Source: a bacterium (GTDB lineage: Bacteria; Patescibacteriota; UBA1384; CAILIB01). Taken from it: a stretch of DNA of 64,000 bases. A model generated the notes under the pieces. The model was not told where the DNA came from, did not search any database, and saw only the letters and a list, made by a program, of their open reading frames with translations. The DNA lies in assembly GCA_037131105.1 (NCBI GenBank), contig JBAXRQ010000001.1, positions 830,217 to 894,216 on the forward strand, given 5' to 3'. Shown in pieces: positions 11,504 through 57,621 of this stretch (within the stretch, counting starts at the first letter, position 1; every line of letters begins with the position of its first letter). The position numbers were made by a program, and so were the translations under genes.

Positions 11504-12802
11504 CTATTTGGTTAATATCTCTAGGGCCTTGCTGACCTGGGCATCAGTAGTACTGGTAGGGGTTCCGTCAGGCAGGGCTACGGTAACGTCGGGACTCAGC
11601 CCCTTGCCGTCGATGGTGACCCCGAGCGGTGTAAACCACTTGGCCACGGTTATTTTGACGCTACCCTTATTACTAAGCGGTACAACTTCCTGGGCACTGC
11701 CCTTGCCGAAGGTCTTGGTGCCAACCAGAGTAGCACGATGATAGTCACGCATAGCGCCGGCAAATATTTCCGAGGCAGAGGCACTGCCACCGTTTACCAG
11801 CACTACCATGGGTATCGTATCCAGTATAGGATCATCGCTGGCCGTATGCACGTCTTGGCTGCCATCTTTGAACTTCTCCACCACGGCCGTGCGCTCCTGT
11901 AAGCGAGAATCAGTTTCCGTCGGATGCCGAGGAATGACCCGTCCGATGGCCTCAACTGCCGAGTCCAGGTAGCCTCCAGGGTTGTCACGCAAGTCGATCA
12001 CTAGGCCCTTTTCATTCTTGGAAGCGGCGTCATGCAGGGCGGCGTCGAGTAGGCCGTTGGTATCACTACCGAACTGATTGACCTTGATATAGGCGAACTG
12101 CTTCTTGTCCCCCAGTGTACTGGAAGTGACGCTCTTAACCGTAATGGTATCGCGCACCAAAGAGACAAGTAGAGGCTTTTCAGCCCCGGCTCTGGCAATG
12201 GTCAACTTCACCGTACTGCCCTTCTCACCTCTGATAGCGTTAATAGCATCGTCGAAGCTCATGGCAGCCACTTTCTTATCCCCTATCTGCACAATGATAT
12301 CACCACCCTTCAGCCCCGCCTTCTGAGCAGGTGTACCATCAAGGGCCGACTCAATGGTAAGCAGGCCGTCCTTTACGTCAAGCTGGGCGCCAATACCTCC
12401 AAAATTACCCTGCAGATCAGACTGAAAGAGGGTATTTTGGCTCGGCGGAAAATAGACCGTGTACGGATCACCGAGGCCAGCCACCATACCTGAGATAGCC
12501 CCCTCCACCCGTTTATTGTCATTGGCGGTACCGTAATAGGTAGAGTCGATGGCATTCCAAGCCTGCCAAAACAGGCCAAGATCTGCCTGCTTGCTCTTGT
12601 CAGGATTCTTGCCATTCAGAATGTAGGCAGGGATGCCGGAGCTAGTGTAGCCCCGAGCCTTCAGGACCACTAGGCCGATGTAGATACCGGCGATCAGGCT
12701 GATCAGCACTAGGCCAAAAAGCAACCCCCCGCCCAGTAGGCGGCGGTGTAGACGATGGCGAGGAGCAGTAGGTATCGGGATCGGGGACGTGTCCTTGAGC
12801 AT
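11504..12802 (-). CDS. ctpA: Carboxyl-terminal processing protease (S41) with PDZ domain
   Basis: N-terminal TM, PDZ region (GGIGAQL) and S41 catalytic region. Confidence 0.85.
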   Translation of the reverse strand: MLKDTSPIPIPTAPRHRLHRRLLGGGLLFGLVLISLIAGIYIGLVVLKARGYTSSGIPAYILNGKNPDKSKQADLGLFWQAWNAIDSTYYGTANDNKRVEGAISGMVAGLGDPYTVYFPPSQNTLFQSDLQGNFGGIGAQLDVKDGLLTIESALDGTPAQKAGLKGGDIIVQIGDKKVAAMSFDDAINAIRGEKGSTVKLTIARAGAEKPLLVSLVRDTITVKSVTSSTLGDKKQFAYIKVNQFGSDTNGLLDAALHDAASKNEKGLVIDLRDNPGGYLDSAVEAIGRVIPRHPTETDSRLQERTAVVEKFKDGSQDVHTASDDPILDTIPMVVLVNGGSASASEIFAGAMRDYHRATLVGTKTFGKGSAQEVVPLSNKGSVKITVAKWFTPLGVTIDGKGLSPDVTVALPDGTPTSTTDAQVSKALEILTK

Positions 12803-12888
12803 ATGGGTTCATTATACGATGAAACTGGCTTCTGGCCAATGATTAATAAACCTAAGAAAAAGCTTTGGCCAGAATGAGGGGTTCTGTT

Positions 12889-13000
12889 TGTGAGCGCATT
12901 TCAAGGAAAAGACGAGCATCGAACCGAGGCGTACTCTTCTGTACGTCGAGGGAGAAGCGGAGGCTTTGACGCTGAAAGTCGCCGCAAGCAGAGGTCCTGG
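12889..13000 (+). repeat. Copy A of a ~115-nt conserved structured element (second copy at 54066..54182)
   Basis: Shares gcatttcaagg...accgaggcgtac-N6-gtacgt[ct]gaggga...gaaag.cgcc with copy B. The internal hairpin GGCGUAC/GUACGUC keeps pairing through a G·U wobble only on the plus strand. Confidence 0.5.
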
Positions 13001-16960: not shown

Positions 16961-17573
16961 GGTCGTTCCAGGAAACCAGTTTCCAGCCGGCCGTCGGGTC
17001 GTAACTAAACTCACTGATCCCGGTATTCCTGATTCCGGCATGCCAATATATAGAAGCATAGTCGGTAGGACCGTAACCGTCTCCGAGCAATACCTTCCCC
17101 AGCAGTACCTTGGTGAACAGCTCGTGACCAAAGGCCAGCACTGTCTCTTGTTGTAATGAAACCATAGAGGCCAGGCACTGCTCAGCCCGCTTATTCAGAT
17201 CGGCGAAATTCTCTTCGTCACTATGGTGCCATTCGAGATCGGCTACCCGCTCCCACATCTCGCTTACCACGGCAATGGCCTCAGGATCAGCATAAGCCTT
17301 CCCCACTAGAAGGCTGGGCTTGCCGCATTCGGCTAAGAGGTCAGTGGTAGTAACTGGCACATTCAAACGGGCGGCAGTAGGCTCAGCCGTCTGCATCGCT
17401 CGGACGAAGGGACTGGACAGAATAATAGTTGGTCGCAGATGTGCCAAAGCACCGACAAGTGTATCCGCCTGCTGAAATCCAAGCGCGGAGAGGGGAGTGT
17501 CCCACCGCTGATATACCTTGGCGGCTATGGAGTCAGTCTCCCCGTGCCTGACCATAATGACTCTCGTACTCAT
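16944..17573 (-). CDS. Histidine phosphatase family protein (phosphoglycerate-mutase-like)
   Basis: N-terminal RHG motif (VRHGET). Confidence 0.75.
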   Translation of the reverse strand: MSTRVIMVRHGETDSIAAKVYQRWDTPLSALGFQQADTLVGALAHLRPTIILSSPFVRAMQTAEPTAARLNVPVTTTDLLAECGKPSLLVGKAYADPEAIAVVSEMWERVADLEWHHSDEENFADLNKRAEQCLASMVSLQQETVLAFGHELFTKVLLGKVLLGDGYGPTDYASIYWHAGIRNTGISEFSYDPTAGWKLVSWNDHAHLA

Positions 17574-17672
17574 ATCCCTACCCTAGGCGAAATCCCGGTT
17601 CCACGCAAGAAACCACAGCAAGGAAACCGCCCTATGGCGGCTCCCTTATGTGTATCAGCATATTCCCCCTCT

Positions 17673-43783: not shown

Positions 43784-43816
43784 AAAAACCGCCGTACCCG
43801 AAGGTCGTGCGGTTTT
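43784..43816 (-). terminator. Hairpin terminator (copy 1 of a duplicated 33-nt hairpin)
   Basis: AAAACCGC...CCCGAAGG...GCGGTTTT located 3' of the 43874 gene. A near-identical copy sits at 46504..46536. Confidence 0.55.
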
Positions 43817-46503: not shown

Positions 46504-46536
46504 AAAAACCGCACTACCCGAAGGTCGTGCGGTTTT
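46504..46536. terminator. Bidirectional hairpin terminator (copy 2)
   Basis: Same 33-nt hairpin as 43784..43816, placed between convergent genes. Confidence 0.55.
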
Positions 46537-48980: not shown

Positions 48981-51665
48981 CTATTCATTACTGGGGAAGG
49001 CCTGGTTAGCCAATGTCTCAAAGCGTCCAAACTGTAACCGGGCCAGCAACTTGGCATCCCCAGTCGGGCCGTTACGGTGCTTCCTCACCATCACTTCCAT
49101 GAGGTTGTTCTGCTCGTCCTTGTTATAGTAGTCGTCGCGATACAGGAACATCACCACGTCAGCGTCCTGCTCAATCGAATTGTGGACGACGATGTCATTG
49201 GCAACAAAGTTATGAGTTCCGGGAACTGTTGCGTCAAACACTTCTTCTACTGCCAGCGGAGTAATACTAGTAATTTCATCCCAATACAGATCGGAGTCAG
49301 CCAAGACCCCAAGATAACGACTACCGACTATCTGTGCAATTCGTCCTAGCCGCTCCCTGCTCACTCCGCTCTTAAACAAGGCTGATCCGGCGTAGGACAT
49401 TCCCATACTTGCCTGTACGGCTCTCCAGCTCAGCCCTGACGCCACTTTGGCCGGGATGATCAGCTGTTCCCAGATTGAAAGGTCGAGGGTATCGGTATTA
49501 GGATTGCCTTTTAAGCCAGCAAGCAACTCCTTGCACTGGCTAACGTTCTCTCCCCTGCGGCCATGACAGCCAACAGCGGCGAGAAATATTTCCTGGTTTG
49601 CCTTGCCTTGCACTTCTACATGATAACTTGGACGAAACGTCTTAGCTCCCTTGACCTGGGGAACCTGACGAAGGGTAGCCTGCATTCCCACCCGTAATAA
49701 TAGATGCTGCACCTGTTCCGCTAGAATCGGGCTAGTAGTAGCATAGTATATCGAGACCTTGTCCCTGGCTACGGACAGACATCCGTCAGTTGCCCACAAG
49801 TGATGCAGGAAGAGGGCTACCTGGGAATTTGAACAGCTGAAGAGACTGGCCGGCAGCTTTTTCTCATAGGAACGCGCCAATCCCAACCCCTCAGATTCCA
49901 ACCACTTTAGAAACGGATGCTTCTTACCTCTGGCATTACGATACGGACTAGGAAGATACAGATGATACCAGCTCTTCTGAGCAACCTGACGAGGCTTAAT
50001 CCCGTAAAGTATTGCAGTGGCATAGGCTACCGCTTCGATATTAGCTGGGTCATTACTCGTGTAATGCACCGGCTGGTGAGATACGTAGCACCCATCCCCC
50101 ACCATATGGGCCAGGAATGTCAGCTGTTCATCGCTATAAGAGGTGTTATCGGCAAGATTGCTAGGGAACTGACGTGGCAGGGCTAGTTTCTCGCCAATCT
50201 TAAGATTATCGAGGGATTGCCATTCAGTATACGTCTTGAACTTATGGTTAGCAGAGGCTTTGATCGTCCTACCGGAGCGGAACTTCAGCTCATATGTCTG
50301 CTTATAACCACTGGAGAATACTTTGGAAGCCGTCTTACGAACAATCTTATACTCCTCATCCATGCTCCACACCGGCACGTTAGTCTGACCTACCAGATCT
50401 TTGATCATTACGCGCTCACCAGTATCAGCTCTCTGGATAAGGGTATCGCCGGTCAAACAGCCACTTTCTCTTAGGTCCGACAGCAGCGGCCGCTTGTCCG
50501 GGCGCGACTCCACCGCACGGGAGAGCTGCGACAGGGCGATCACCGGACAGTTGATCTCTCGGGCCAGGGCCTTTAACGAGCGGGAGATTTCCGAGACTTC
50601 CTGTACACGGTTGTCGCTATTGCCTTTCGCGGTTCCCTCCATGAGCTGCAGGTAGTCCAATACTATGAGGTCAAGACCGTACTCAGCCTGCAGACGTCGA
50701 GCCTTGGCGCGAACCTCCATGATATTGGCCGAAGGGGTATCGTCGATGAACAGGTTGGCTTCGGCAAGTATTCCGTAGGCCTCGTTCAGGTTACGGAAGT
50801 CCTCGTCATTCAGCTTGCCGTTACGCAGCTTCCAGCTGTCGATCTGGCCAATAGAGGAAATGAGACGATCCACCAGCTGCTCCTTGGACATTTCCAGGGA
50901 GAAGATGCCCACCGACTTCTTCTGTTGCACGGCCACGTTCTGGGCGATCTGCAGGGCGAAGGCCGTTTTTCCCATCGAAGGACGGGCGGCCAGGATGATC
51001 AGGTCAGACTGCTGCAGGCCACCCAGGATATTGTCTATGTGCTTGTAGCCGGTCGAAAGGCCGCGCATAGTCCCATCCTGCTTGGACAAGGCATCCAGCC
51101 GCTCGAAGCTGTCGGCCAGGATGCTGCGGACCGGGATGAAGTTCTGCTTGAGGAAGCGCTGGGTGACGGCAAACAAGGCCTGCTCGGCCTGGTCCAGAAT
51201 GACGCTTGACGGCTCGTCCTCACGGAAGCCCAGCTCGCTGATCGAGCCGGCCGCGGAGATAAGGCGGCGCAGCATGGCCTTCTCCCGGACGATCTGGGCG
51301 TAATGCTGGACATTGGTGGCAGAGGCCACTGAGCTCACCAGGCTGGAAAGCTTGGCCGGGCCCCCTATCTGGTCCAGCTTCTTCACCCGGGCCAGCTCGT
51401 CGGCCACCGTCACCAGGTCGATGGGCACCCGCTTCTCTGAGAGAACCACCATGGCCTCGTAGATCGCCGCGTGGTCAGGGCGGTAGAAGTCGACGGCAGA
51501 CAGTATGTCGATGACCTTCAACATCGCCTCCACATCGAGAAGCAAGGCCCCGATAGTGGAGACCTCGGCGTCGATGTTCTGCGGGGGCATCCGGCCGGCC
51601 ACCTGGTGAGGGGTCAGCGACGGGGCCTCCTGCTGGTAGTTCTGACGAGAACCAGTGCGGGCCAT
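48981..51665 (-). CDS. dnaB: Replicative DNA helicase DnaB interrupted by an intein
   Basis: 894 aa. Exteins carry the DnaB motifs (ARPSMGKT; DLRESG|SIEQDAD). The insert lies at the canonical DnaB intein site. Confidence 0.9.
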   Translation of the reverse strand: MARTGSRQNYQQEAPSLTPHQVAGRMPPQNIDAEVSTIGALLLDVEAMLKVIDILSAVDFYRPDHAAIYEAMVVLSEKRVPIDLVTVADELARVKKLDQIGGPAKLSSLVSSVASATNVQHYAQIVREKAMLRRLISAAGSISELGFREDEPSSVILDQAEQALFAVTQRFLKQNFIPVRSILADSFERLDALSKQDGTMRGLSTGYKHIDNILGGLQQSDLIILAARPSMGKTAFALQIAQNVAVQQKKSVGIFSLEMSKEQLVDRLISSIGQIDSWKLRNGKLNDEDFRNLNEAYGILAEANLFIDDTPSANIMEVRAKARRLQAEYGLDLIVLDYLQLMEGTAKGNSDNRVQEVSEISRSLKALAREINCPVIALSQLSRAVESRPDKRPLLSDLRESGCLTGDTLIQRADTGERVMIKDLVGQTNVPVWSMDEEYKIVRKTASKVFSSGYKQTYELKFRSGRTIKASANHKFKTYTEWQSLDNLKIGEKLALPRQFPSNLADNTSYSDEQLTFLAHMVGDGCYVSHQPVHYTSNDPANIEAVAYATAILYGIKPRQVAQKSWYHLYLPSPYRNARGKKHPFLKWLESEGLGLARSYEKKLPASLFSCSNSQVALFLHHLWATDGCLSVARDKVSIYYATTSPILAEQVQHLLLRVGMQATLRQVPQVKGAKTFRPSYHVEVQGKANQEIFLAAVGCHGRRGENVSQCKELLAGLKGNPNTDTLDLSIWEQLIIPAKVASGLSWRAVQASMGMSYAGSALFKSGVSRERLGRIAQIVGSRYLGVLADSDLYWDEITSITPLAVEEVFDATVPGTHNFVANDIVVHNSIEQDADVVMFLYRDDYYNKDEQNNLMEVMVRKHRNGPTGDAKLLARLQFGRFETLANQAFPSNE
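49179..50459 (-). mobile_element. DnaB intein (427 aa) with LAGLIDADG homing-endonuclease domain
   Basis: Begins with Cys (CLTGDTLI) and ends ...VVHN before the +1 Ser. Two LAGLIDADG-like blocks (LAHMVGDGCY, LHHLWATDGC). Coordinates come from the ORF track and are ±2 nt. Confidence 0.8.
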
Positions 51666-52727: not shown

Positions 52728-54041
52728 TTAGGGGGTCAGCCGGTTCACACCGCGGTGCAGGTAGGTCACTTCCCTGATATTCTCAGTGTTGAACATCTTC
52801 ATCATCATGCGGACCGGTCCGATTCCGGCGCCACCGTGAGGTGGGCAGCCGTACTTGAAGAAGTCGAGATAGGTGCCAATGGACGCCTCTGTCAGCCCCT
52901 TGTCCAGAGCCTGCTTCTTAAGAACCTCGTAGCGATGCTCACGCTGGGCACCGGTAGTGATCTCTACCCCGTTCCACATCAAGTCAAAGCCTCTAGTGAT
53001 GCCGGGCCGGTCCTCGTACCGCATGTGGTAGAAAGCGCGACTCTCGATAGGATACTCCGTAACGAATACGAACTCGTGGCCATGTTTCTCCATGATGACC
53101 TCGGAAAGCTTCTTCTCTTCCTCAGGGTTGAGGTCGCCGACTTTGTCGCTCTTGATGTCAAACGGCTTGAGCAGCTCCTTGGCCTCGGCCAGGGTTACCC
53201 GGGGAAACGGCAGCGTAGGCACCACCAGCTCGCGACCGAACAGCTCCTTGATCTTCTCCCCGTGCCGCTCCTTGATCGTAGTGAGCACAGAGGCGATCAT
53301 TCCTTCAAGGTTGGCAGCGATGTCCTCATGAGAGTCAATGAACGACATCTCGAAGTCATAGCCGGTGAACTCGGTGGCATGCCGGGTGGTGAATGAGGGC
53401 TCAGCCCGGAACACCGGCCCGACCTCAAATACCTTCTCAAAGCCGGAGGCCATAGCCATCTGCTTGTAGAACTGGGGAGACTGGGCCAGATAGGCCTTGC
53501 CGCCGAAGTAGTCGACGGTGAAGAGCTCAGCTCCGGACTCGCTCGGAGCGCTCATGAACTTGGGCGAGTGGATTTCCAAGAAGCCCTTTTCCAGGAAGTA
53601 CTTCATGAACGCCTCCTCAAAGGTGGTCCAGACCTGGAAGATTAGTAGGTTTTTGGGCTTCCTCAGGTCCAGCCAGCGGTAGTCCAGGCGCAGCGACTGG
53701 TCGGTCTCCCCTTCACCCTTCTCAACTACGGGAATAGGCAGCTCAGGGGCGGCGGCAGAGAGCACCTCGACGCTTTCAACCTGGATCTCAGCCCCGCCGG
53801 GAGCCTGGGGAGCGGCCACTGCCACACCCTCGACGACGATCACCGATTCCAAGGAGATATCCTCAGCAGCGGCAAAGACGGCCTCATGCTCCTTGCTGAC
53901 CACGCACTGGATGGTGCCAGTGACGTCGCGCAGGATAAGGAACTGGATCTTGCTCTGGCGGCGGGCGGTCTGCAAAAAGCCCATCAGGCGGACTTTCTCT
54001 CCAGGCTTGGAGCCGGCCTGGGCGGTATAGGTTCGTTCCAT
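52728..54041 (-). CDS. aspS: Aspartyl-tRNA synthetase, archaeal/eukaryal type (likely non-discriminating)
   Basis: 437-aa class II aaRS with an N-terminal OB and motif 3 (GGAGIGPVRMMM). Co-occurs with gatCAB. Confidence 0.75.
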   Translation of the reverse strand: MERTYTAQAGSKPGEKVRLMGFLQTARRQSKIQFLILRDVTGTIQCVVSKEHEAVFAAAEDISLESVIVVEGVAVAAPQAPGGAEIQVESVEVLSAAAPELPIPVVEKGEGETDQSLRLDYRWLDLRKPKNLLIFQVWTTFEEAFMKYFLEKGFLEIHSPKFMSAPSESGAELFTVDYFGGKAYLAQSPQFYKQMAMASGFEKVFEVGPVFRAEPSFTTRHATEFTGYDFEMSFIDSHEDIAANLEGMIASVLTTIKERHGEKIKELFGRELVVPTLPFPRVTLAEAKELLKPFDIKSDKVGDLNPEEEKKLSEVIMEKHGHEFVFVTEYPIESRAFYHMRYEDRPGITRGFDLMWNGVEITTGAQREHRYEVLKKQALDKGLTEASIGTYLDFFKYGCPPHGGAGIGPVRMMMKMFNTENIREVTYLHRGVNRLTP

Positions 54042-54065
54042 AAAGGTGGGATTAGCGAGACTAGC

Positions 54066-54182
54066 GCGTTTGGATGCATTTCAAGGAAGGATTGAGTATT
54101 TGACCGAGGCGTACTCGCTGGTACGTTGAGGGAAAAACGGAAATCCTGACGAAGAAAGGCGCCAAACGCGTAGGACCGGGGA
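54066..54182 (+). repeat. Copy B of the conserved structured element
   Basis: Aligns with 12889..13000 at roughly 70% identity with conserved blocks. The hairpin GGCGUAC/GUACGUU needs two G·U wobbles on the plus strand. Confidence 0.5.
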
Positions 54183-54554
54183 AATAAAAATGCCCTCGCA
54201 CAATTACTCGAAAGTAATCATGTAAGGGCGACGTTAATCGCGGTGCCACCTTACTTCACTCCTGGCGGAGCCTTGTTTACGCTGTAACGGGCGCTCCCGA
54301 GGGGGTCTAGTATCCGCAGGAGCGGAGTTCTTCCCCTGGCTCAGCGGTGTCAGCCGCCTCAATGCCTATGCAAAGAGTATGGCAGAACCTGGAAAGGAGG
54401 GCAAGTGAGCTGGATTACAAACGTTTACAGCCCTGCCAAAGACCGCTATACTCATCCCAATGACCTCATACTCCTCTTTTAGCTTTTGCTGGCAGTCCCA
54501 CCTCCTTCTTCAGAAGCGAGCCCTGTTTTAGTACCAGTCTAAACCAGAAGACAG

Positions 54555-54585
54555 CGCCCGCTCCTGAAGCGGGTGTTTTGTTTTC
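54555..54585 (+). terminator. Rho-independent terminator closing an ORF-free ~500-nt interval
   Basis: CGCCCGC-tcctgaa-GCGGGTG stem followed by TTTTGTTTT. Confidence 0.55.
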
Positions 54586-54612
54586 GGCAAGGCACATCTT
54601 GGAATTTGAAAG

Positions 54613-55410
54613 GTGGATCGCATGAAACGCGCATTCGCGCCTAGCCTTCGAGGCTTACTAGATACGACAAGTAGTAAAATGCTGGCAGAGACGGCACCAT
54701 GGGTCCGACACGGACTAGAGCGCAGGCTGGACAGCGGCATTTTGAGGCTAGTCTCGGTATTCTCACCGGACTATTCCCGAGCAGCCGATCGGATTACCTG
54801 CAGTACACGAGTGAATGACGGACTCCCCTATGGCGCCCAGACACATCTAAATCTGGTAGCAGAAATGAGGGAGACCCTCGCCCAGTACGGGATTGACCTG
54901 GAATACAGCATTACCCTGACTGACGGAGACGTAGAATTTCCCAGGGTAATGCACCAGGTGGCCGACGGTGACGGTGAGCAGTTCCTGGATAACTGCCAGC
55001 AGAGCTGCCATGCCTTGGGCGAGGAAGCAGAGAGACTGGGTCTGAGGGTAACGATCTGTGGACGCCACAGCGTCATATTTCCTACCTGGTACAAGGTCTA
55101 CGACAAGTTGGTGTCGGAGCTTGGCAGACAGGTGGAGGCCGACCCCAGCCTCTCGGCCCGACTTGGCTGCTTCGCAAGCCGCAGGCTAAGTCTCTATAGG
55201 GACATGGGGGCCTGGGACCTCAGCGTAGGATGCTCGCAGGAAATGCTGATTAGGCAATGGGCCCAGTGCATGACCTGGGGCGAATGCTCAAGTCGGGACA
55301 TCGGGGCTGACATAGTGACGCTTGGCCACGCCACCCCTGTGCTGGACATGCTGAATCATCCCCTGGTCCGCAAGGGAAGGGAACGCATCCCTTTGCTAAG
55401 GATCAGATAA
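54613..55410 (+). CDS. Hypothetical protein
   Basis: 265-aa ORF preceded by GAAAGGTGGA. No recognisable family. Confidence 0.35.
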   Translation: MDRMKRAFAPSLRGLLDTTSSKMLAETAPWVRHGLERRLDSGILRLVSVFSPDYSRAADRITCSTRVNDGLPYGAQTHLNLVAEMRETLAQYGIDLEYSITLTDGDVEFPRVMHQVADGDGEQFLDNCQQSCHALGEEAERLGLRVTICGRHSVIFPTWYKVYDKLVSELGRQVEADPSLSARLGCFASRRLSLYRDMGAWDLSVGCSQEMLIRQWAQCMTWGECSSRDIGADIVTLGHATPVLDMLNHPLVRKGRERIPLLRIR

Positions 55411-55521
55411 CGAATCGTGTATGTGCACCATCCCCGCCCCGCCATTTCCAAGGAAGTGGCGGGGATGTTTTTTGGCTTACGAGAAGGGGAAAATGTGGTA
55501 CGTTGGTATAAATTCTCTATC

Positions 55522-56301
55522 ATGTCCACCTCTAAAGAACATACTCCCGGTGAAAAAATACGCGAGCTCCGTAAGGAGAGAGCTCTTTCTATTGAGGCAC
55601 TGGCCAATGAAGCGGGCATAACAGCGGTGGCACTAAGTAATATCGAGACAAAACAAGCACATCCACAGCGCAACACCCTTCTAAAGCTGATAAGGTGCTT
55701 GGAAAATGTACTGTCACTTTTACCAAGTATCAGAAGAAGCCTGGTGTACTCCTATGGTTATACCGACGTCTACGACGCCCCAACCCCTCCTGAAATAACC
55801 ACGGCGATAACTGCCTGGGAACTCCAGTTCAAGAACACCTCCTTCCCCGCCTATGTCATCGATATGACGATGAAAATTCACACGGCAAACCGTGCCATGC
55901 TAGGTCTCATGGACGAATCTGGCCAAGCTCGCACAGACCTCTGGGTATACGACCTAATTTTCTCCCCACCCCTTAAAAAGGGGCTACGGTTAGAAGGCAC
56001 CTATCAACTAACCTATAACTTGGTGGCATACATCTGGTTTGATCATCAGCCCTATTTTCGAGAATCCTGGTGGCAGGAAAGCCTTCTTAAAGGCCGTAAG
56101 AAGTACCCTCTTTTCGGAGAACTAATCGATGGCTTCTCCAGTGGTACACTCCCATTGCCGGAACTTGAGACCATGGAACCAGTCACCTTCACACTTGCTG
56201 ACGGAAGCAAGCTCACTTATGGCATACTCTCGGCAAATGTAGTTGAAGATCCACGGTTTAGAAGTATCCAATTCATCCCTATGGGCCACGAAAAGATATA
56301 G
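55522..56301 (+). CDS. MmyB-like transcriptional regulator (XRE HTH + MmyB-like C-domain), paralog 1
   Basis: HTH_XRE (GEKIRELRKERALSIEALANEAGITAVALSNIE) and a C-domain with KYPLFGEL. The track ORF starts at 55417; I prefer the internal Met. Confidence 0.6.
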   Translation: MSTSKEHTPGEKIRELRKERALSIEALANEAGITAVALSNIETKQAHPQRNTLLKLIRCLENVLSLLPSIRRSLVYSYGYTDVYDAPTPPEITTAITAWELQFKNTSFPAYVIDMTMKIHTANRAMLGLMDESGQARTDLWVYDLIFSPPLKKGLRLEGTYQLTYNLVAYIWFDHQPYFRESWWQESLLKGRKKYPLFGELIDGFSSGTLPLPELETMEPVTFTLADGSKLTYGILSANVVEDPRFRSIQFIPMGHEKI

Positions 56302-56796: not shown

Positions 56797-57621
56797 TTGG
56801 AAAAAACTTACCCAGATATGGCAGTAGCCCTGTTCCTCACATCAGGAGAAAAGATACGCGAGCTCCGTAAGGAACGCGGCCTTTCTATTGAGGCACTGGC
56901 CAATGAAGCGGGCATAACAGCGGTGGCACTAAGTAATATCGAGCTGAAGTCAGCCGCTCCGCAGCGCTCAACCATACTCAAGCTTCTTGACTGCCTCGAC
57001 TCAACACTTCCCATACCCGTGGAGAAACGTCGCGAGATTACCGATGCCTTTGGCTACATAGATATACCTGGCGTCCCCAACCAGCACGATATCGACAAAG
57101 CAGTACAGGCATGGCAAAAGCCATTCAAAAACACACCCTATCCAGCCTATATTCTTGACCGCGTTCAGCGCATCCATGACTGGAACGATCAAATGCTGGC
57201 CTTCATCGGTGAGGACATACAAGACCTGAAGGGCAGGACCATATTCGACCTGCTATTCGACGGGCGTTCCCGCGGCGTGGTGAATCTGGTCAATGAAGAG
57301 GAAGTAGTCACAAAGATGGTCAGGCACATGCGCAAGGAGTACAGGCCCTATATGGATGAGGAATGGTGCAAGCAATGCCTGGCAGATGCCCGGGCAAAGT
57401 ACCCTCTCTTTGGCGAGCTGTTTGACACTCTCCCCGACGAAGGCTCTCCCGCCCTTGACCTAAGGGCTACCGGCCCGATCATTCTCCGGGACAAGGAAGG
57501 CCACACCCTTCATTTTCAAATAGTAGGTATCGACCTCATAAGCGACCCCCGCTTCGGCGTGGTGCAGTACATCCCCCTGGATAAGGAGACTGCCCAGATC
57601 CTCACCAACCTCTTCAGCTAA
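56797..57621 (+). CDS. MmyB-like transcriptional regulator, paralog 2
   Basis: Same architecture as 55522..56301. Shares an identical ~64-nt HTH-coding tract with it. Confidence 0.6.
   Translation: MEKTYPDMAVALFLTSGEKIRELRKERGLSIEALANEAGITAVALSNIELKSAAPQRSTILKLLDCLDSTLPIPVEKRREITDAFGYIDIPGVPNQHDIDKAVQAWQKPFKNTPYPAYILDRVQRIHDWNDQMLAFIGEDIQDLKGRTIFDLLFDGRSRGVVNLVNEEEVVTKMVRHMRKEYRPYMDEEWCKQCLADARAKYPLFGELFDTLPDEGSPALDLRATGPIILRDKEGHTLHFQIVGIDLISDPRFGVVQYIPLDKETAQILTNLFS

What the first reader, a model, noticed from the sequence alone, without database searches (positions are those of the whole stretch)
54066..54588. ORF-free ~520-nt interval bounded by element B and an intrinsic terminator: candidate ncRNA
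No ORF of 60 aa or more lies between aspS (minus strand) and the 54613 gene. The interval starts with the conserved element and ends with a strong plus-strand terminator about 25 nt before the next gene's RBS. That layout fits a stand-alone ncRNA or a long regulatory leader. I did not recognise RNase P, SRP or tmRNA signatures in it.
Basis: seen in the sequence. Interest (0 to 1): 0.5.

Follow-up and report, generated by a model that had tools for sequence, protein, structure and literature searches.

The report
Asp T-box leader plus hairpin repeat
The gene-free stretch is not one long RNA gene: on the opposite strand it carries a tRNA-sensing T-box switch for the neighbouring aspartyl-tRNA synthetase gene, and it also holds one copy of a widespread hairpin repeat of unknown function and a short terminator-bearing leader for the next gene.

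Summary
The interval is real. At 571 nt it is the largest ORF-free gap in the window, where the median gap is 71 nt. It is a composite, not one plus-strand ncRNA.

1. Minus strand, 54371->54182: a T-box leader for aspS (Rfam RF00230, 46.4 bits, E=4.8e-7 window-wide, below the gathering score of 93). It has a K-turn and an ultrashort Stem I. The terminal loop CUGACA carries the Asp codon GAC followed by A. Stem II, the IIA/B element with F-box CCGUUA, Stem III, the T-box sequence with a UGGC bulge, and an intrinsic terminator are all present. An ultrashort Stem I combined with a terminator is unusual.

2. Plus strand, 54066-54171: "element B", a 106-nt hairpin (-44.7 kcal/mol, z=-6.3). It belongs to a family with more than 120 hits each in genome and metagenome collections across many phyla. 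The family shows strong covariation and has no Rfam match. Its function is unknown, and its folded strand is mostly antisense to neighbouring genes.

3. Plus strand, 54424-54587: a promoter-like site followed by a ~128-nt leader. A long hairpin in the leader competes with the strong terminator upstream of an ORFan gene whose ATG is at 54622.

The parts
54221..54371 (-). T-box leader core upstream of aspS: Stem I, Stem II, IIA/B, Stem III and the antiterminator.
   Evidence: cmscan RF00230 gives 46.4 bits, E=6.4e-9 in the local search and 4.8e-7 for the whole window against all families. The full model 1-219 is matched, with 74 Stem I positions replaced by 4 nt.
54338..54366 (-). Ultrashort Stem I. 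K-turn: GGC, bulge AUU, GA on one strand and GA, GCC on the other. Above it a 5-bp helix GGCGG/CCGCU closed by the 6-nt terminal loop CUGACA.
   Evidence: The MFE fold gives exactly this hairpin. The K-turn columns align to the Rfam consensus UGA...GAG.
54349..54351 (-). Specifier codon GAC (Asp), followed by the conserved purine A at 54348.
   Evidence: Read from the sequence. It matches the regulated gene. TBDB reports that two-codon families prefer the specifier ending in C (PMC7778990).
54222..54254 (-). Antiterminator: helix GUAAGG/CCUUAC, a 7-nt bulge UGGCACC (UGGC at 54248-54245), and helix GCGAU-UAAC-GUCGC. It lies inside the T-box sequence AAGUAAGGUGGCACCGCG.
   Evidence: Fold gives -10.8 kcal/mol. 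It aligns to the T-box consensus with high posterior probability.
54182..54229 (-). Intrinsic terminator of the T-box: stem 54229->54192 followed by AUUUUUAUUU. Its 5' arm reuses the 3' strand of the antiterminator.
   Evidence: -20.4 kcal/mol, z=-4.4, 0 of 200 shuffles fold as well.
54376..54404 (-). Possible promoter of the T-box leader: TTGCCC, 17 nt, CATACT. It would start transcription near 54369-54371, where the T-box match begins.
   Evidence: Read by eye. It falls below the scanner's threshold. Inferred, weak.
54066..54171 (+). Element B, copy 2: a 106-nt irregular hairpin with conserved internal loops (CAAGGA / UGACGAAG; GAG / CGG; GA-CC-GA / GA-GG-GA) and the apical helix GGCGUAC/GUACGUU.
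   Evidence: -44.7 kcal/mol with z=-6.3 on the plus strand, against -28.1 on the minus strand. CM R1 scores 73.1 bits at 54082-54154. Family covariation is shown.
12877..13000 (+). Element B, copy 1. It lies between the stop codon of an M23 peptidase gene and the start of ctpA, both on the minus strand.
   Evidence: -54.4 kcal/mol (z=-4.6) on the plus strand, against -29.5 (z=-0.3) on the minus strand. CM R1 scores 68.3 bits. The stems differ from copy 2 by compensatory changes.
54424..54452 (+). Promoter-like site TTTACA, 17 nt, TATACT, divergent from the T-box promoter.
   Evidence: 10 of 12 consensus matches and the only such site in 53500-55000, but 0.5 are expected by chance. Inferred.
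54505..54572 (+). Long hairpin whose 3' arm contains the 5' arm and loop of the terminator, making it a possible antiterminator.
   Evidence: -22.4 kcal/mol, z=-3.5. It is chosen in the MFE of the whole leader.
54553..54587 (+). Intrinsic terminator with its U tract, about 22 nt before the Shine-Dalgarno sequence of the next gene.
54610..54624 (+). Shine-Dalgarno AAGGTGGA and start codon ATG (54622) of a 262-aa ORFan.
   Evidence: Sequence and gene calls. No Pfam or NCBIfam family. Only self hits in 5.8 billion proteins.
54042..54065 (-). The last 24 nt of the aspS 5' UTR. No Shine-Dalgarno sequence is visible (..CUAAUCCCACCUUUAUG).
   Evidence: Sequence.

Best explanation
The interval is a divergent regulatory region built from three independent modules.

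(1) A T-box riboswitch on the minus strand. It is transcribed from about 54370 towards aspS. Shown: the sequence and structure match the family, the loop holds an Asp codon, and a terminator competes with the antiterminator. Inferred mechanism: uncharged tRNA-Asp pairs its GUC anticodon with GAC in the terminal loop of a very short Stem I, helped by Stem II and the IIA/B pseudoknot. Its free 3' end (G73-C-C-A) pairs with the UGGC bulge. This stabilises the weak antiterminator (-10.8 kcal/mol) against the stronger terminator (-20.4 kcal/mol), so RNA polymerase reads on into aspS, and probably into trpS and dnaB downstream. Charged tRNA-Asp cannot do this, and transcription stops at 54182.

(2) One copy of a widespread, often multi-copy hairpin repeat ("element B"). 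It lies between the T-box terminator and the aspS start codon, with its well-folding strand antisense to aspS. My best guess is that it is an insertion-type intergenic hairpin repeat (MITE/REP-like), tolerated here in the orientation that puts only the weaker complementary hairpin into the aspS mRNA. Its own function is not known.

(3) A plus-strand promoter-like site with a ~128-nt leader. A long hairpin and an intrinsic terminator in the leader are mutually exclusive. This is a possible attenuator, or a small RNA, in front of an ORFan gene.
For: T-box:
- RF00230 is the only significant non-tRNA Rfam match in the window: 46.4 bits, E=4.8e-7 for 64 kb, both strands, 4227 families.
- It is on the strand of aspS and directly upstream of it.
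- Family hallmarks are present: K-turn; Stem II with GAA/ACUA aligned to the S-turn columns; F-box CCGUUA; Stem III; AAGGUGGCACCGCG with a UGGC bulge.
- The loop reads GAC followed by A. GAC is the specifier TBDB reports as preferred for Asp.
- The terminator folds at -20.4 kcal/mol with z=-4.4, is followed by AUUUUUAUUU, and overlaps the antiterminator at -10.8 kcal/mol.

Element B:
- Two copies in the window.
- More than 120 exact core matches in genome contigs, in Nitrospirota, Desulfobacterota-like, Myxococcota and Actinomycetota MAGs and Patescibacteria. More than 120 in metagenomes. None in viral contigs.
- Covariation in 88 distinct sequences: 81.9% of cells paired against 64.5% in shuffles (0/500). 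Covariation score 0.358 against 0.116. Slid controls give at most 0.086. The MAFFT-only alignment gives 0.26 against 0.11.
- G.U pairs fix the strand.
- No Rfam match in 37 loci or in the window.

Plus-strand leader.
Against: T-box:
- The score is below Rfam's gathering threshold (46.4 against 93).
- Stem I lacks the distal platform that transcriptional T-boxes are said to require (review PMC7583486).
- No tRNA-Asp gene is in the window to test pairing.
- None of the six nearest AspRS loci examined (about 61-66% identity) has a T-box, so there is no comparative support.
- The promoter is weak, and there is no Shine-Dalgarno sequence before aspS.

Element B: no promoter, terminator or associated gene was found, and no insertion polymorphism was shown, so "mobile repeat" is an inference.

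Plus-strand leader: the whole-leader fold is not better than shuffles (z=-0.7). One promoter-like site is near chance expectation. The downstream gene has no homologues, so nothing could be compared.
Confidence: 0.75

Rival explanations
1. One long (~520 nt) plus-strand non-coding RNA that begins with element B and ends at the terminator.
For: Element B folds best on the plus strand. The only strong U-tract terminator at the right-hand end is on the plus strand.
Against: No promoter-like site lies upstream of 54066. The central 190 nt match a T-box on the minus strand, next to the gene a T-box should control. Element B also occurs elsewhere without this context. No Rfam family matches the plus strand apart from a terminator-driven Trp_leader hit at E=0.27.
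Confidence: 0.04
2. The T-box match is a decayed relic or a chance resemblance, and aspS is expressed constitutively.
For: The score is below the gathering threshold. Stem I is truncated. The six related aspS loci examined lack a T-box. A repeat element sits in the leader.
Against: E=4.8e-7 window-wide. All discriminator-domain hallmarks are intact. The loop codon matches the gene, and UGGC matches G73 of tRNA-Asp (established identity element). The terminator and antiterminator overlap as required. A relic would not be expected to keep all of these.
Confidence: 0.1
3. Element B is an independently expressed small RNA gene on the plus strand. Here it would act as a cis-antisense RNA against the aspS 5' UTR.
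For: The structure, the G.U pairs and the purine-rich conserved loops are on the plus strand. The family is mostly antisense to flanking genes. In one Paceibacterota MAG the element is followed on its own strand by a hairpin with a U tract (L004 and L012).
Against: No promoter-like site precedes either window copy, and no U-tract terminator follows them. Copy 1 lies upstream of the predicted ctpA promoter, so it would not overlap that mRNA. In other phyla the element is high-copy with long terminal stems and sits at contig ends, like a repeat.
Confidence: 0.2
4. Element B (as its complement) is a working part of the aspS leader, for instance a second structure controlling translation or mRNA stability after T-box readthrough.
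For: It lies 24 nt before the start codon, aspS has no Shine-Dalgarno sequence, and the complement still folds (-28.1 kcal/mol, z=-3.6).
Against: The same element occurs next to unrelated genes and in both orientations. The covariation and G.U pattern point to the other strand.
Confidence: 0.1
5. The plus-strand segment 54459-54587 is a stand-alone small RNA rather than an attenuator of the ORFan gene.
For: A promoter-like site followed by a strong terminator gives a ~128-nt unit. It contains CCCACCUCCUUC, an anti-Shine-Dalgarno-like stretch.
Against: The terminator lies only about 22 nt before the gene's ribosome-binding site, and no other promoter is seen for that gene. A competing hairpin overlaps the terminator, which is the layout of an attenuator.
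Confidence: 0.3

Closest known systems
Transcriptional (class I) T-box riboswitch, Rfam RF00230 (e.g. Bacillus subtilis tyrS and glyQS leaders)
   Same: Position upstream of an aminoacyl-tRNA synthetase gene. K-turn at the base of Stem I, specifier codon followed by a purine, Stem II with IIA/B and the F-box, Stem III. T-box sequence with a UGGN bulge. Mutually exclusive antiterminator and intrinsic terminator.
   Different: Stem I is only a K-turn plus a 5-bp helix, and the specifier sits in a terminal loop. [quoted passage not shown] The host appears to be a Patescibacteria-like MAG rather than a Firmicute.
Translational (class II) ileS T-boxes of Actinobacteria with an ultrashort Stem I (Mycobacterium and Nocardia ileS)
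   Same: Truncated Stem I lacking the elbow-binding platform. Stem II and the IIA/B pseudoknot are retained and presumably compensate in tRNA binding.
   Different: Those control ribosome access to the Shine-Dalgarno sequence. This one ends in a hairpin followed by AUUUUUAUUU about 140 nt before a start codon that has no Shine-Dalgarno sequence. The amino acid is Asp, not Ile.
Small dispersed hairpin repeats of bacteria (Correia/NEMIS, ERIC, REP/REPIN, other MITEs)
   Same: Element B is 100-200 nt, intergenic, a nearly palindromic long hairpin, and present in several to many copies per genome. In Nitrospira and Deferrimicrobium MAGs it has long terminal inverted stems and sits at contig ends.
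   Different: In known MITEs the ends are conserved and the middle is free. Here the apical 30 nt and two internal loops are conserved across phyla, while the stems covary. No transposase partner and no target duplication were demonstrated.
Terminator/antiterminator attenuators (e.g. trp leader RF00513, matched only weakly)
   Same: The plus-strand leader has a hairpin that excludes the terminator.
   Different: There is no leader peptide with regulatory codons and no known aptamer. The Rfam hit (19.9 bits, E=0.27) rests on the terminator alone.

Membership tests
T-box riboswitch (RF00230) | Significant match to the family covariance model | tested here: inconclusive
   46.4 bits. E=4.8e-7 for the whole window against all families, but below the curated gathering score of 93. 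The shortfall comes from 74 Stem I model positions replaced by 4 nt.
T-box riboswitch (RF00230) | Located in the 5' leader, on the same strand, of an aminoacyl-tRNA synthetase or amino-acid gene | tested here: met
   The match is on the minus strand at 54371->54221. aspS is on the minus strand and starts at 54041.
T-box riboswitch (RF00230) | T-box sequence forming an antiterminator with a 7-nt bulge carrying 5'-UGGN-3' | tested here: met
   AAGUAAGGUGGCACCGCG. The fold gives GUAAGG/CCUUAC, the bulge UGGCACC and GCGAU/GUCGC.
T-box riboswitch (RF00230) | Specifier codon matching the regulated gene's amino acid, followed by a purine | tested here: met
   The loop CUGACA contains GAC (Asp) followed by A, and the gene is AspRS. 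The register was assigned by eye, not by the model.
T-box riboswitch (RF00230) | The N of UGGN is complementary to the discriminator base of the cognate tRNA | not testable with these tools
   N is C, which fits G73 of bacterial tRNA-Asp (established knowledge). No tRNA-Asp gene is in the window; only tRNA-Leu is present.
T-box riboswitch (RF00230) | K-turn (GA motif) at the base of Stem I | tested here: met
   GGC-AUU-GA...GA-GCC aligned to the consensus columns and found in the fold.
T-box riboswitch (RF00230), transcriptional class | Long Stem I with a distal platform for the tRNA elbow | tested here: not met
   Stem I ends in a 6-nt loop after 5 bp. The review states that this platform is generally required in transcriptional T-boxes.
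T-box riboswitch (RF00230), transcriptional class | Intrinsic terminator that competes with the antiterminator | tested here: met
   Stem 54229->54192 at -20.4 kcal/mol, z=-4.4, followed by AUUUUUAUUU. It shares CCCUUAC with the antiterminator.
T-box riboswitch, translational class II (ultrashort Stem I) | A sequestrator helix that masks the Shine-Dalgarno sequence of the regulated gene | tested here: not met
   The alternative helix is about 140 nt from the start codon, and no Shine-Dalgarno sequence precedes aspS.
T-box riboswitch | tRNA-dependent readthrough | not testable with these tools
   Needs in vitro transcription or in vivo reporters.
MITE / REP-like dispersed repeat (element B) | Several copies per genome in intergenic DNA | tested here: met
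   Two copies in this window. Up to three within 8 kb (L060). Several contigs per MAG, and many copies at contig ends.
MITE / REP-like dispersed repeat (element B) | Terminal inverted repeats with a target-site duplication, and an autonomous partner element | tested here: inconclusive
   Long terminal stems are present. TA/TAG/TAA flank some copies when read by eye. No partner gene recurs near the copies, and no empty site was found.
Any Rfam 15 family (element B) | Match to a curated covariance model | tested here: not met
   No hit at E<=10 over the window copy. None at gathering score in 22 loci. None at E<=1 in 15 further loci.

The most novel reading that the evidence does not exclude
Element B would represent an undescribed, phylum-spanning class of structured nucleic acid. 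It is a rod-like hairpin with an invariant apical module: 5'-CC-GA-GGCGUAC...GUACGYY-GA-GG-3', that is, tandem G.A next to tandem G.U pairs. A second conserved internal loop (CAAGG / RACGMMG) would bind a conserved protein or ion. The family's marked antisense orientation within operon spacers would reflect a real function, for example strand-specific control of antisense transcription, or a single-stranded DNA role, rather than selfish spread.
Probability: 0.3. Interest if true: 0.7.

Novelty: new variant of a known kind. Interest (0 to 1): 0.45.

Why it matters
For the T-box. The review read here says transcriptional T-boxes need the long Stem I platform to catch tRNA fast enough, and that ultrashort Stem I goes with translational control in Actinobacteria. 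A natural Asp T-box that joins an ultrashort Stem I to an intrinsic terminator would test that kinetic argument. Its host is a small genome related to Patescibacteria, a group whose gene regulation is almost unknown. It would also show that at least one such organism senses tRNA charging directly.

For element B. A motif conserved almost base for base from Nitrospira to Saccharibacteria, with strong covariation and no Rfam entry, is a candidate new RNA or DNA element that could be studied in many organisms.

For annotation. The case shows that ORF-free gaps must be scanned on both strands and below gathering thresholds.

Tried and rejected
- **Rfam at gathering score over the window:** only tRNA-Leu. 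The T-box appears only in E-value mode.
- **Other weak Rfam hits in the interval** (Trp_leader, mir-1294, P9, HOTTIP): all are explained by the terminator or the long hairpin. Rejected.
- **Coding explanation for element B:** the two copies keep no common reading frame on either strand. Rejected.
- **Comparative support for the T-box:** six AspRS loci from the closest relatives (about 61-66% identity) have short upstream gaps or no T-box at E<=0.1, and no element B.
- **Homologues of the downstream 262-aa protein:** none beyond itself, and no Pfam or NCBIfam family. The plus-strand leader therefore could not be compared.
- **Identity of element B:**
  - The literature search by sequence strings returned only unrelated primer matches.
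  - Keyword searches on Nitrospira/MITE and on CPR/RNA motifs gave nothing.
  - No matches in viral contigs, and only one 31-nt chance-level match (E=0.9) in plasmids.
- **A recurrent neighbouring gene (transposase, reverse transcriptase):** clustering ORFs within 1.5 kb of 120 copies gave only spurious high-GC ORFs. The real ORF in that region of L090, the only example checked, is an Nnr gene. No group II intron RNA was found.
- **By memory I compared the motif with** K-turn, sarcin-ricin loop, loop E, SRP, 6S, Y RNA, CsrA sites, attC, REP/REPIN, IS110 bridge RNA and the small self-cleaving ribozymes. None fits, and none was tested beyond Rfam.

Full report
**The observation.** aspS occupies 52728..54041 on the minus strand. 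It is a 437-aa class II AspRS (Pfam tRNA-synt_2 at 1.7e-78 plus the OB anticodon-binding domain), and sources name it a non-discriminating Asp-tRNA(Asn) ligase. The next long ORF starts at 54613 on the plus strand. The 571-nt gap between them is the largest ORF-free gap among 66 long ORFs in the window, where the median gap is 71 nt, so the interval stands out. The statement "no ORF of 60 aa" is not literally true. A 62-aa GTG ORF (54061..54249, minus) and part of a 70-aa ORF lie in the interval. They sit on RNA structures, and the two copies of the repeat share no reading frame.

**The organism.** The same AspRS is found on metagenomic contigs of up to 949 kb labelled only "bacterium". Its nearest relatives are only 61-66% identical. 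Those that carry names come from the Patescibacteria/CPR groups: Ryanbacteria, Microgenomates and Parcubacteria. No close relatives are available, so intergenic DNA cannot be compared directly.

**Module 1: a T-box on the minus strand.** At its gathering thresholds Rfam reports only a tRNA in the window. In E-value mode the T-box family RF00230 matches 54371->54221 on the minus strand with 46.4 bits. The E-value is 6.4e-9 locally and 4.8e-7 for the whole window, both strands, against 4227 families. The match lies on the strand of aspS and directly upstream of it.

The alignment and the folds show the family's parts in order:
- A K-turn (GGC, bulge AUU, GA opposite GA, GCC).
- A Stem I of only five pairs (GGCGG/CCGCU) closed by the loop CUGACA.
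- Stem II (GGGG...CCCC), with GAA/ACUA aligned to the S-turn columns.
- The IIA/B element, containing the F-box CCGUUA.
- Stem III (GCUCC/GGAGU).
- The T-box sequence AAGUAAGGUGGCACCGCG.

The T-box sequence folds into the antiterminator GUAAGG/CCUUAC with the 7-nt bulge UGGCACC and the upper helix GCGAU/GUCGC, at -10.8 kcal/mol.

The loop holds GAC, the Asp codon, followed by the usual purine. TBDB reports that two-codon families strongly prefer the C-ending specifier (PMC7778990). The bulge reads UGGC. From established knowledge of tRNA identity, its last base would pair with G73 of tRNA-Asp. The tRNA gene is not in the window, so this pairing is inferred.

Immediately downstream, 54229->54192 forms a 16-pair hairpin (-20.4 kcal/mol, z=-4.4) followed by AUUUUUAUUU. 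Its 5' arm reuses the 3' strand of the antiterminator. This is the classical transcriptional T-box switch.

The bit score falls below Rfam's threshold of 93 mainly because 74 model positions of Stem I are replaced by four nucleotides. The review I read (PMC7583486) says that transcriptional T-boxes generally need the long Stem I with its elbow-binding platform. It adds that ultrashort Stem I is typical of translational T-boxes, a class it describes as mostly identified in Actinobacteria; the examples it names are ileS leaders. There Stem II becomes essential. The T-box here combines an ultrashort Stem I with an intact Stem II/IIAB and a terminator, so I call it a variant.

Weak points:
- The promoter (TTGCCC, 17 nt, CATACT, 54404-54376) was seen only by eye.
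- aspS has no Shine-Dalgarno sequence.
- None of six related aspS loci has a T-box.

**Module 2: element B.** The repeat at 54076-54180 and 12896-13000 (70% identity) is a long irregular hairpin on the plus strand. Copy 2 (54066-54171) folds at -44.7 kcal/mol (z=-6.3), against -28.1 for its complement. Copy 1 (12877-13000) folds at -54.4 (z=-4.6), against -29.5 (z=-0.3). The two copies keep the same unpaired motifs and differ in the stems by compensatory changes, for example AGGAUU/AAUCCU against AAAGAC/GGCUUU.

Matches came from:
- Nitrospira and other Nitrospirota.
- Deferrimicrobium and other "Deltaproteobacteria" MAGs.
- Myxococcales, Geobacteraceae, Krumholzibacteriia and Actinomycetota MAGs.
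- Saccharibacteria, Paceibacterota and Peribacteria.

A few matches, such as those in Microbacterium, look like coding-sequence chance hits. A second pattern hit the same limit in metagenomes. Viral contigs gave nothing, and plasmids gave only one 31-nt chance-level match (E=0.9).

Covariation is strong:
- A 21-sequence MAFFT alignment supports the hairpin: covariation score 0.26 against 0.11 in shuffles (0/500), with slid controls at 0.05-0.14.
- A covariance model built from that alignment finds exactly the two window copies and 102 copies in 100 loci.
- In the 88 distinct sequences, 81.9% of cells pair against 64.5% in shuffles, and the score is 0.358 against 0.116. That alignment is fitted to the model, which favours the structure.
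- A separate test without any alignment gives the same answer. The 4-nt 5' strand of helix P2 is fully complementary to its own partner in 28 of 59 sequences, but to other sequences' partners in only 9%.

Two base pairs at the foot of the apical helix are G.U in 53 and 68 of the 88 sequences and G-C in most of the rest. On the other strand they would be A.C mismatches, so the folded strand is the window's plus strand. Outer stems also fold better on that strand in 30 of 40 representatives (Wilcoxon p=0.003).

No Rfam family matches the element in the window or in 37 loci that carry it.

In Nitrospira and Deferrimicrobium MAGs the element is 145-200 nt long with long terminal inverted stems. 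It occurs up to three times in 8 kb and often lies at contig ends, like a MITE. Unlike known MITEs, the middle is conserved and the stems vary.

I found no recurrent neighbouring gene and no promoter or terminator around the window copies.

One observation remains unexplained. Where ORFs can be trusted (GC below 0.55), the folded strand is mostly antisense to the flanking genes: both neighbours antisense in 15 cases against 4, and about 23 against 7 after removing duplicates. Both window copies follow this rule. My working reading is a selfish or neutral hairpin repeat whose orientation is filtered by selection, because the strong hairpin is harmful inside an mRNA while its weaker complement is tolerated. 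A real function is not excluded.

**Module 3: the plus-strand end.** The only promoter-like site in 53500-55000 is TTTACA, 17 nt, TATACT at 54424-54452, and 0.5 such sites are expected by chance. From there a ~128-nt RNA would run to the terminator (stem 54553-57, -16.8 kcal/mol). A longer hairpin, 54505-54572 (-22.4 kcal/mol, z=-3.5), contains the terminator's 5' arm and loop, so the two exclude each other. This is the layout of an attenuator.

The gene behind it (ATG 54622, preceded by AAGGTGG) encodes a 262-aa protein. It has no family and no homologue other than itself, so no comparison was possible. The whole leader does not fold better than shuffles (z=-0.7). I leave it as a possible attenuator or small RNA.

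**Verdict.** But the main feature is a T-box leader on the opposite strand, and the interval is three modules rather than one transcript. The T-box is a known kind in an unusual form and host. Element B is the part that may be new.

Noticed in passing
family-wide: window 12877-13000 and 54066-54171; L020, L041, L043, L103, L126, L140, L166, L177, L191, L201, L203, L226: The folded (G.U-containing) strand of the element B family is mostly antisense to both flanking genes. It typically fills a 150-250-nt spacer between co-directional genes: about 23 antisense against 7 sense cases in low-GC loci.
   Followed up: partly
L151 2675-2747 and 2907-2979; L114 25-97 and 226-299; L121 468-542 and 597-672; L060 2415-5401: Element B copies occur in tandem on the same strand, or several times within a few kb, in some genomes.
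   Followed up: no
L027 194-266 (5S rRNA at 301-417); L051 4162-4234 (16S rRNA from 4476): Two element B copies lie next to rRNA genes. One is about 35 nt upstream of 5S rRNA on the same strand. The other is about 240 nt upstream of 16S rRNA on the opposite strand.
   Followed up: no
window 12811-12839 (minus strand): TTGGCC, 17 nt, TATAAT ends 8 nt before the ctpA ATG (12802). This suggests a leaderless or nearly leaderless mRNA. aspS also lacks a Shine-Dalgarno sequence.
   Followed up: no
window 48981-51665 (minus strand): The DnaB helicase gene carries an intein with a LAGLIDADG homing endonuclease domain. It follows aspS and trpS on the same strand, so all three may lie downstream of the T-box.
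   Followed up: no
window 55417-56301 and 56797-57621 (plus strand); repeat 55549-55688 / 56845-56984: Two paralogous XRE-type HTH regulators share an 84% identical 140-nt stretch. The homologue on L001 also has a MmyB-like ligand-binding domain. They flank a MazG-like gene, just downstream of the ORFan.
   Followed up: no
window 43784-43816 and 46504-46536: Two 94% identical 33-nt hairpins, AAAAACCGC...GCGGTTTT, which look like bidirectional terminators.
   Followed up: no
window 17132-17672 and 578-1075: Two other large ORF-free gaps (541 and 498 nt) with no Rfam match at E<=0.1.
   Followed up: no
window 11696-11805 (plus strand): Weak Rfam hit to Rickettsia sRNA47 (30.6 bits, E=4.6e-4, gathering score 60), antisense inside the ctpA coding region. 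Probably chance.
   Followed up: no
L010, L097, L109, L120 (Deferrimicrobium-type copies); L126, L155, L227: Some element B copies have their 3' half replaced by another conserved sequence, suggesting that a second element inserted into the hairpin.
   Followed up: no
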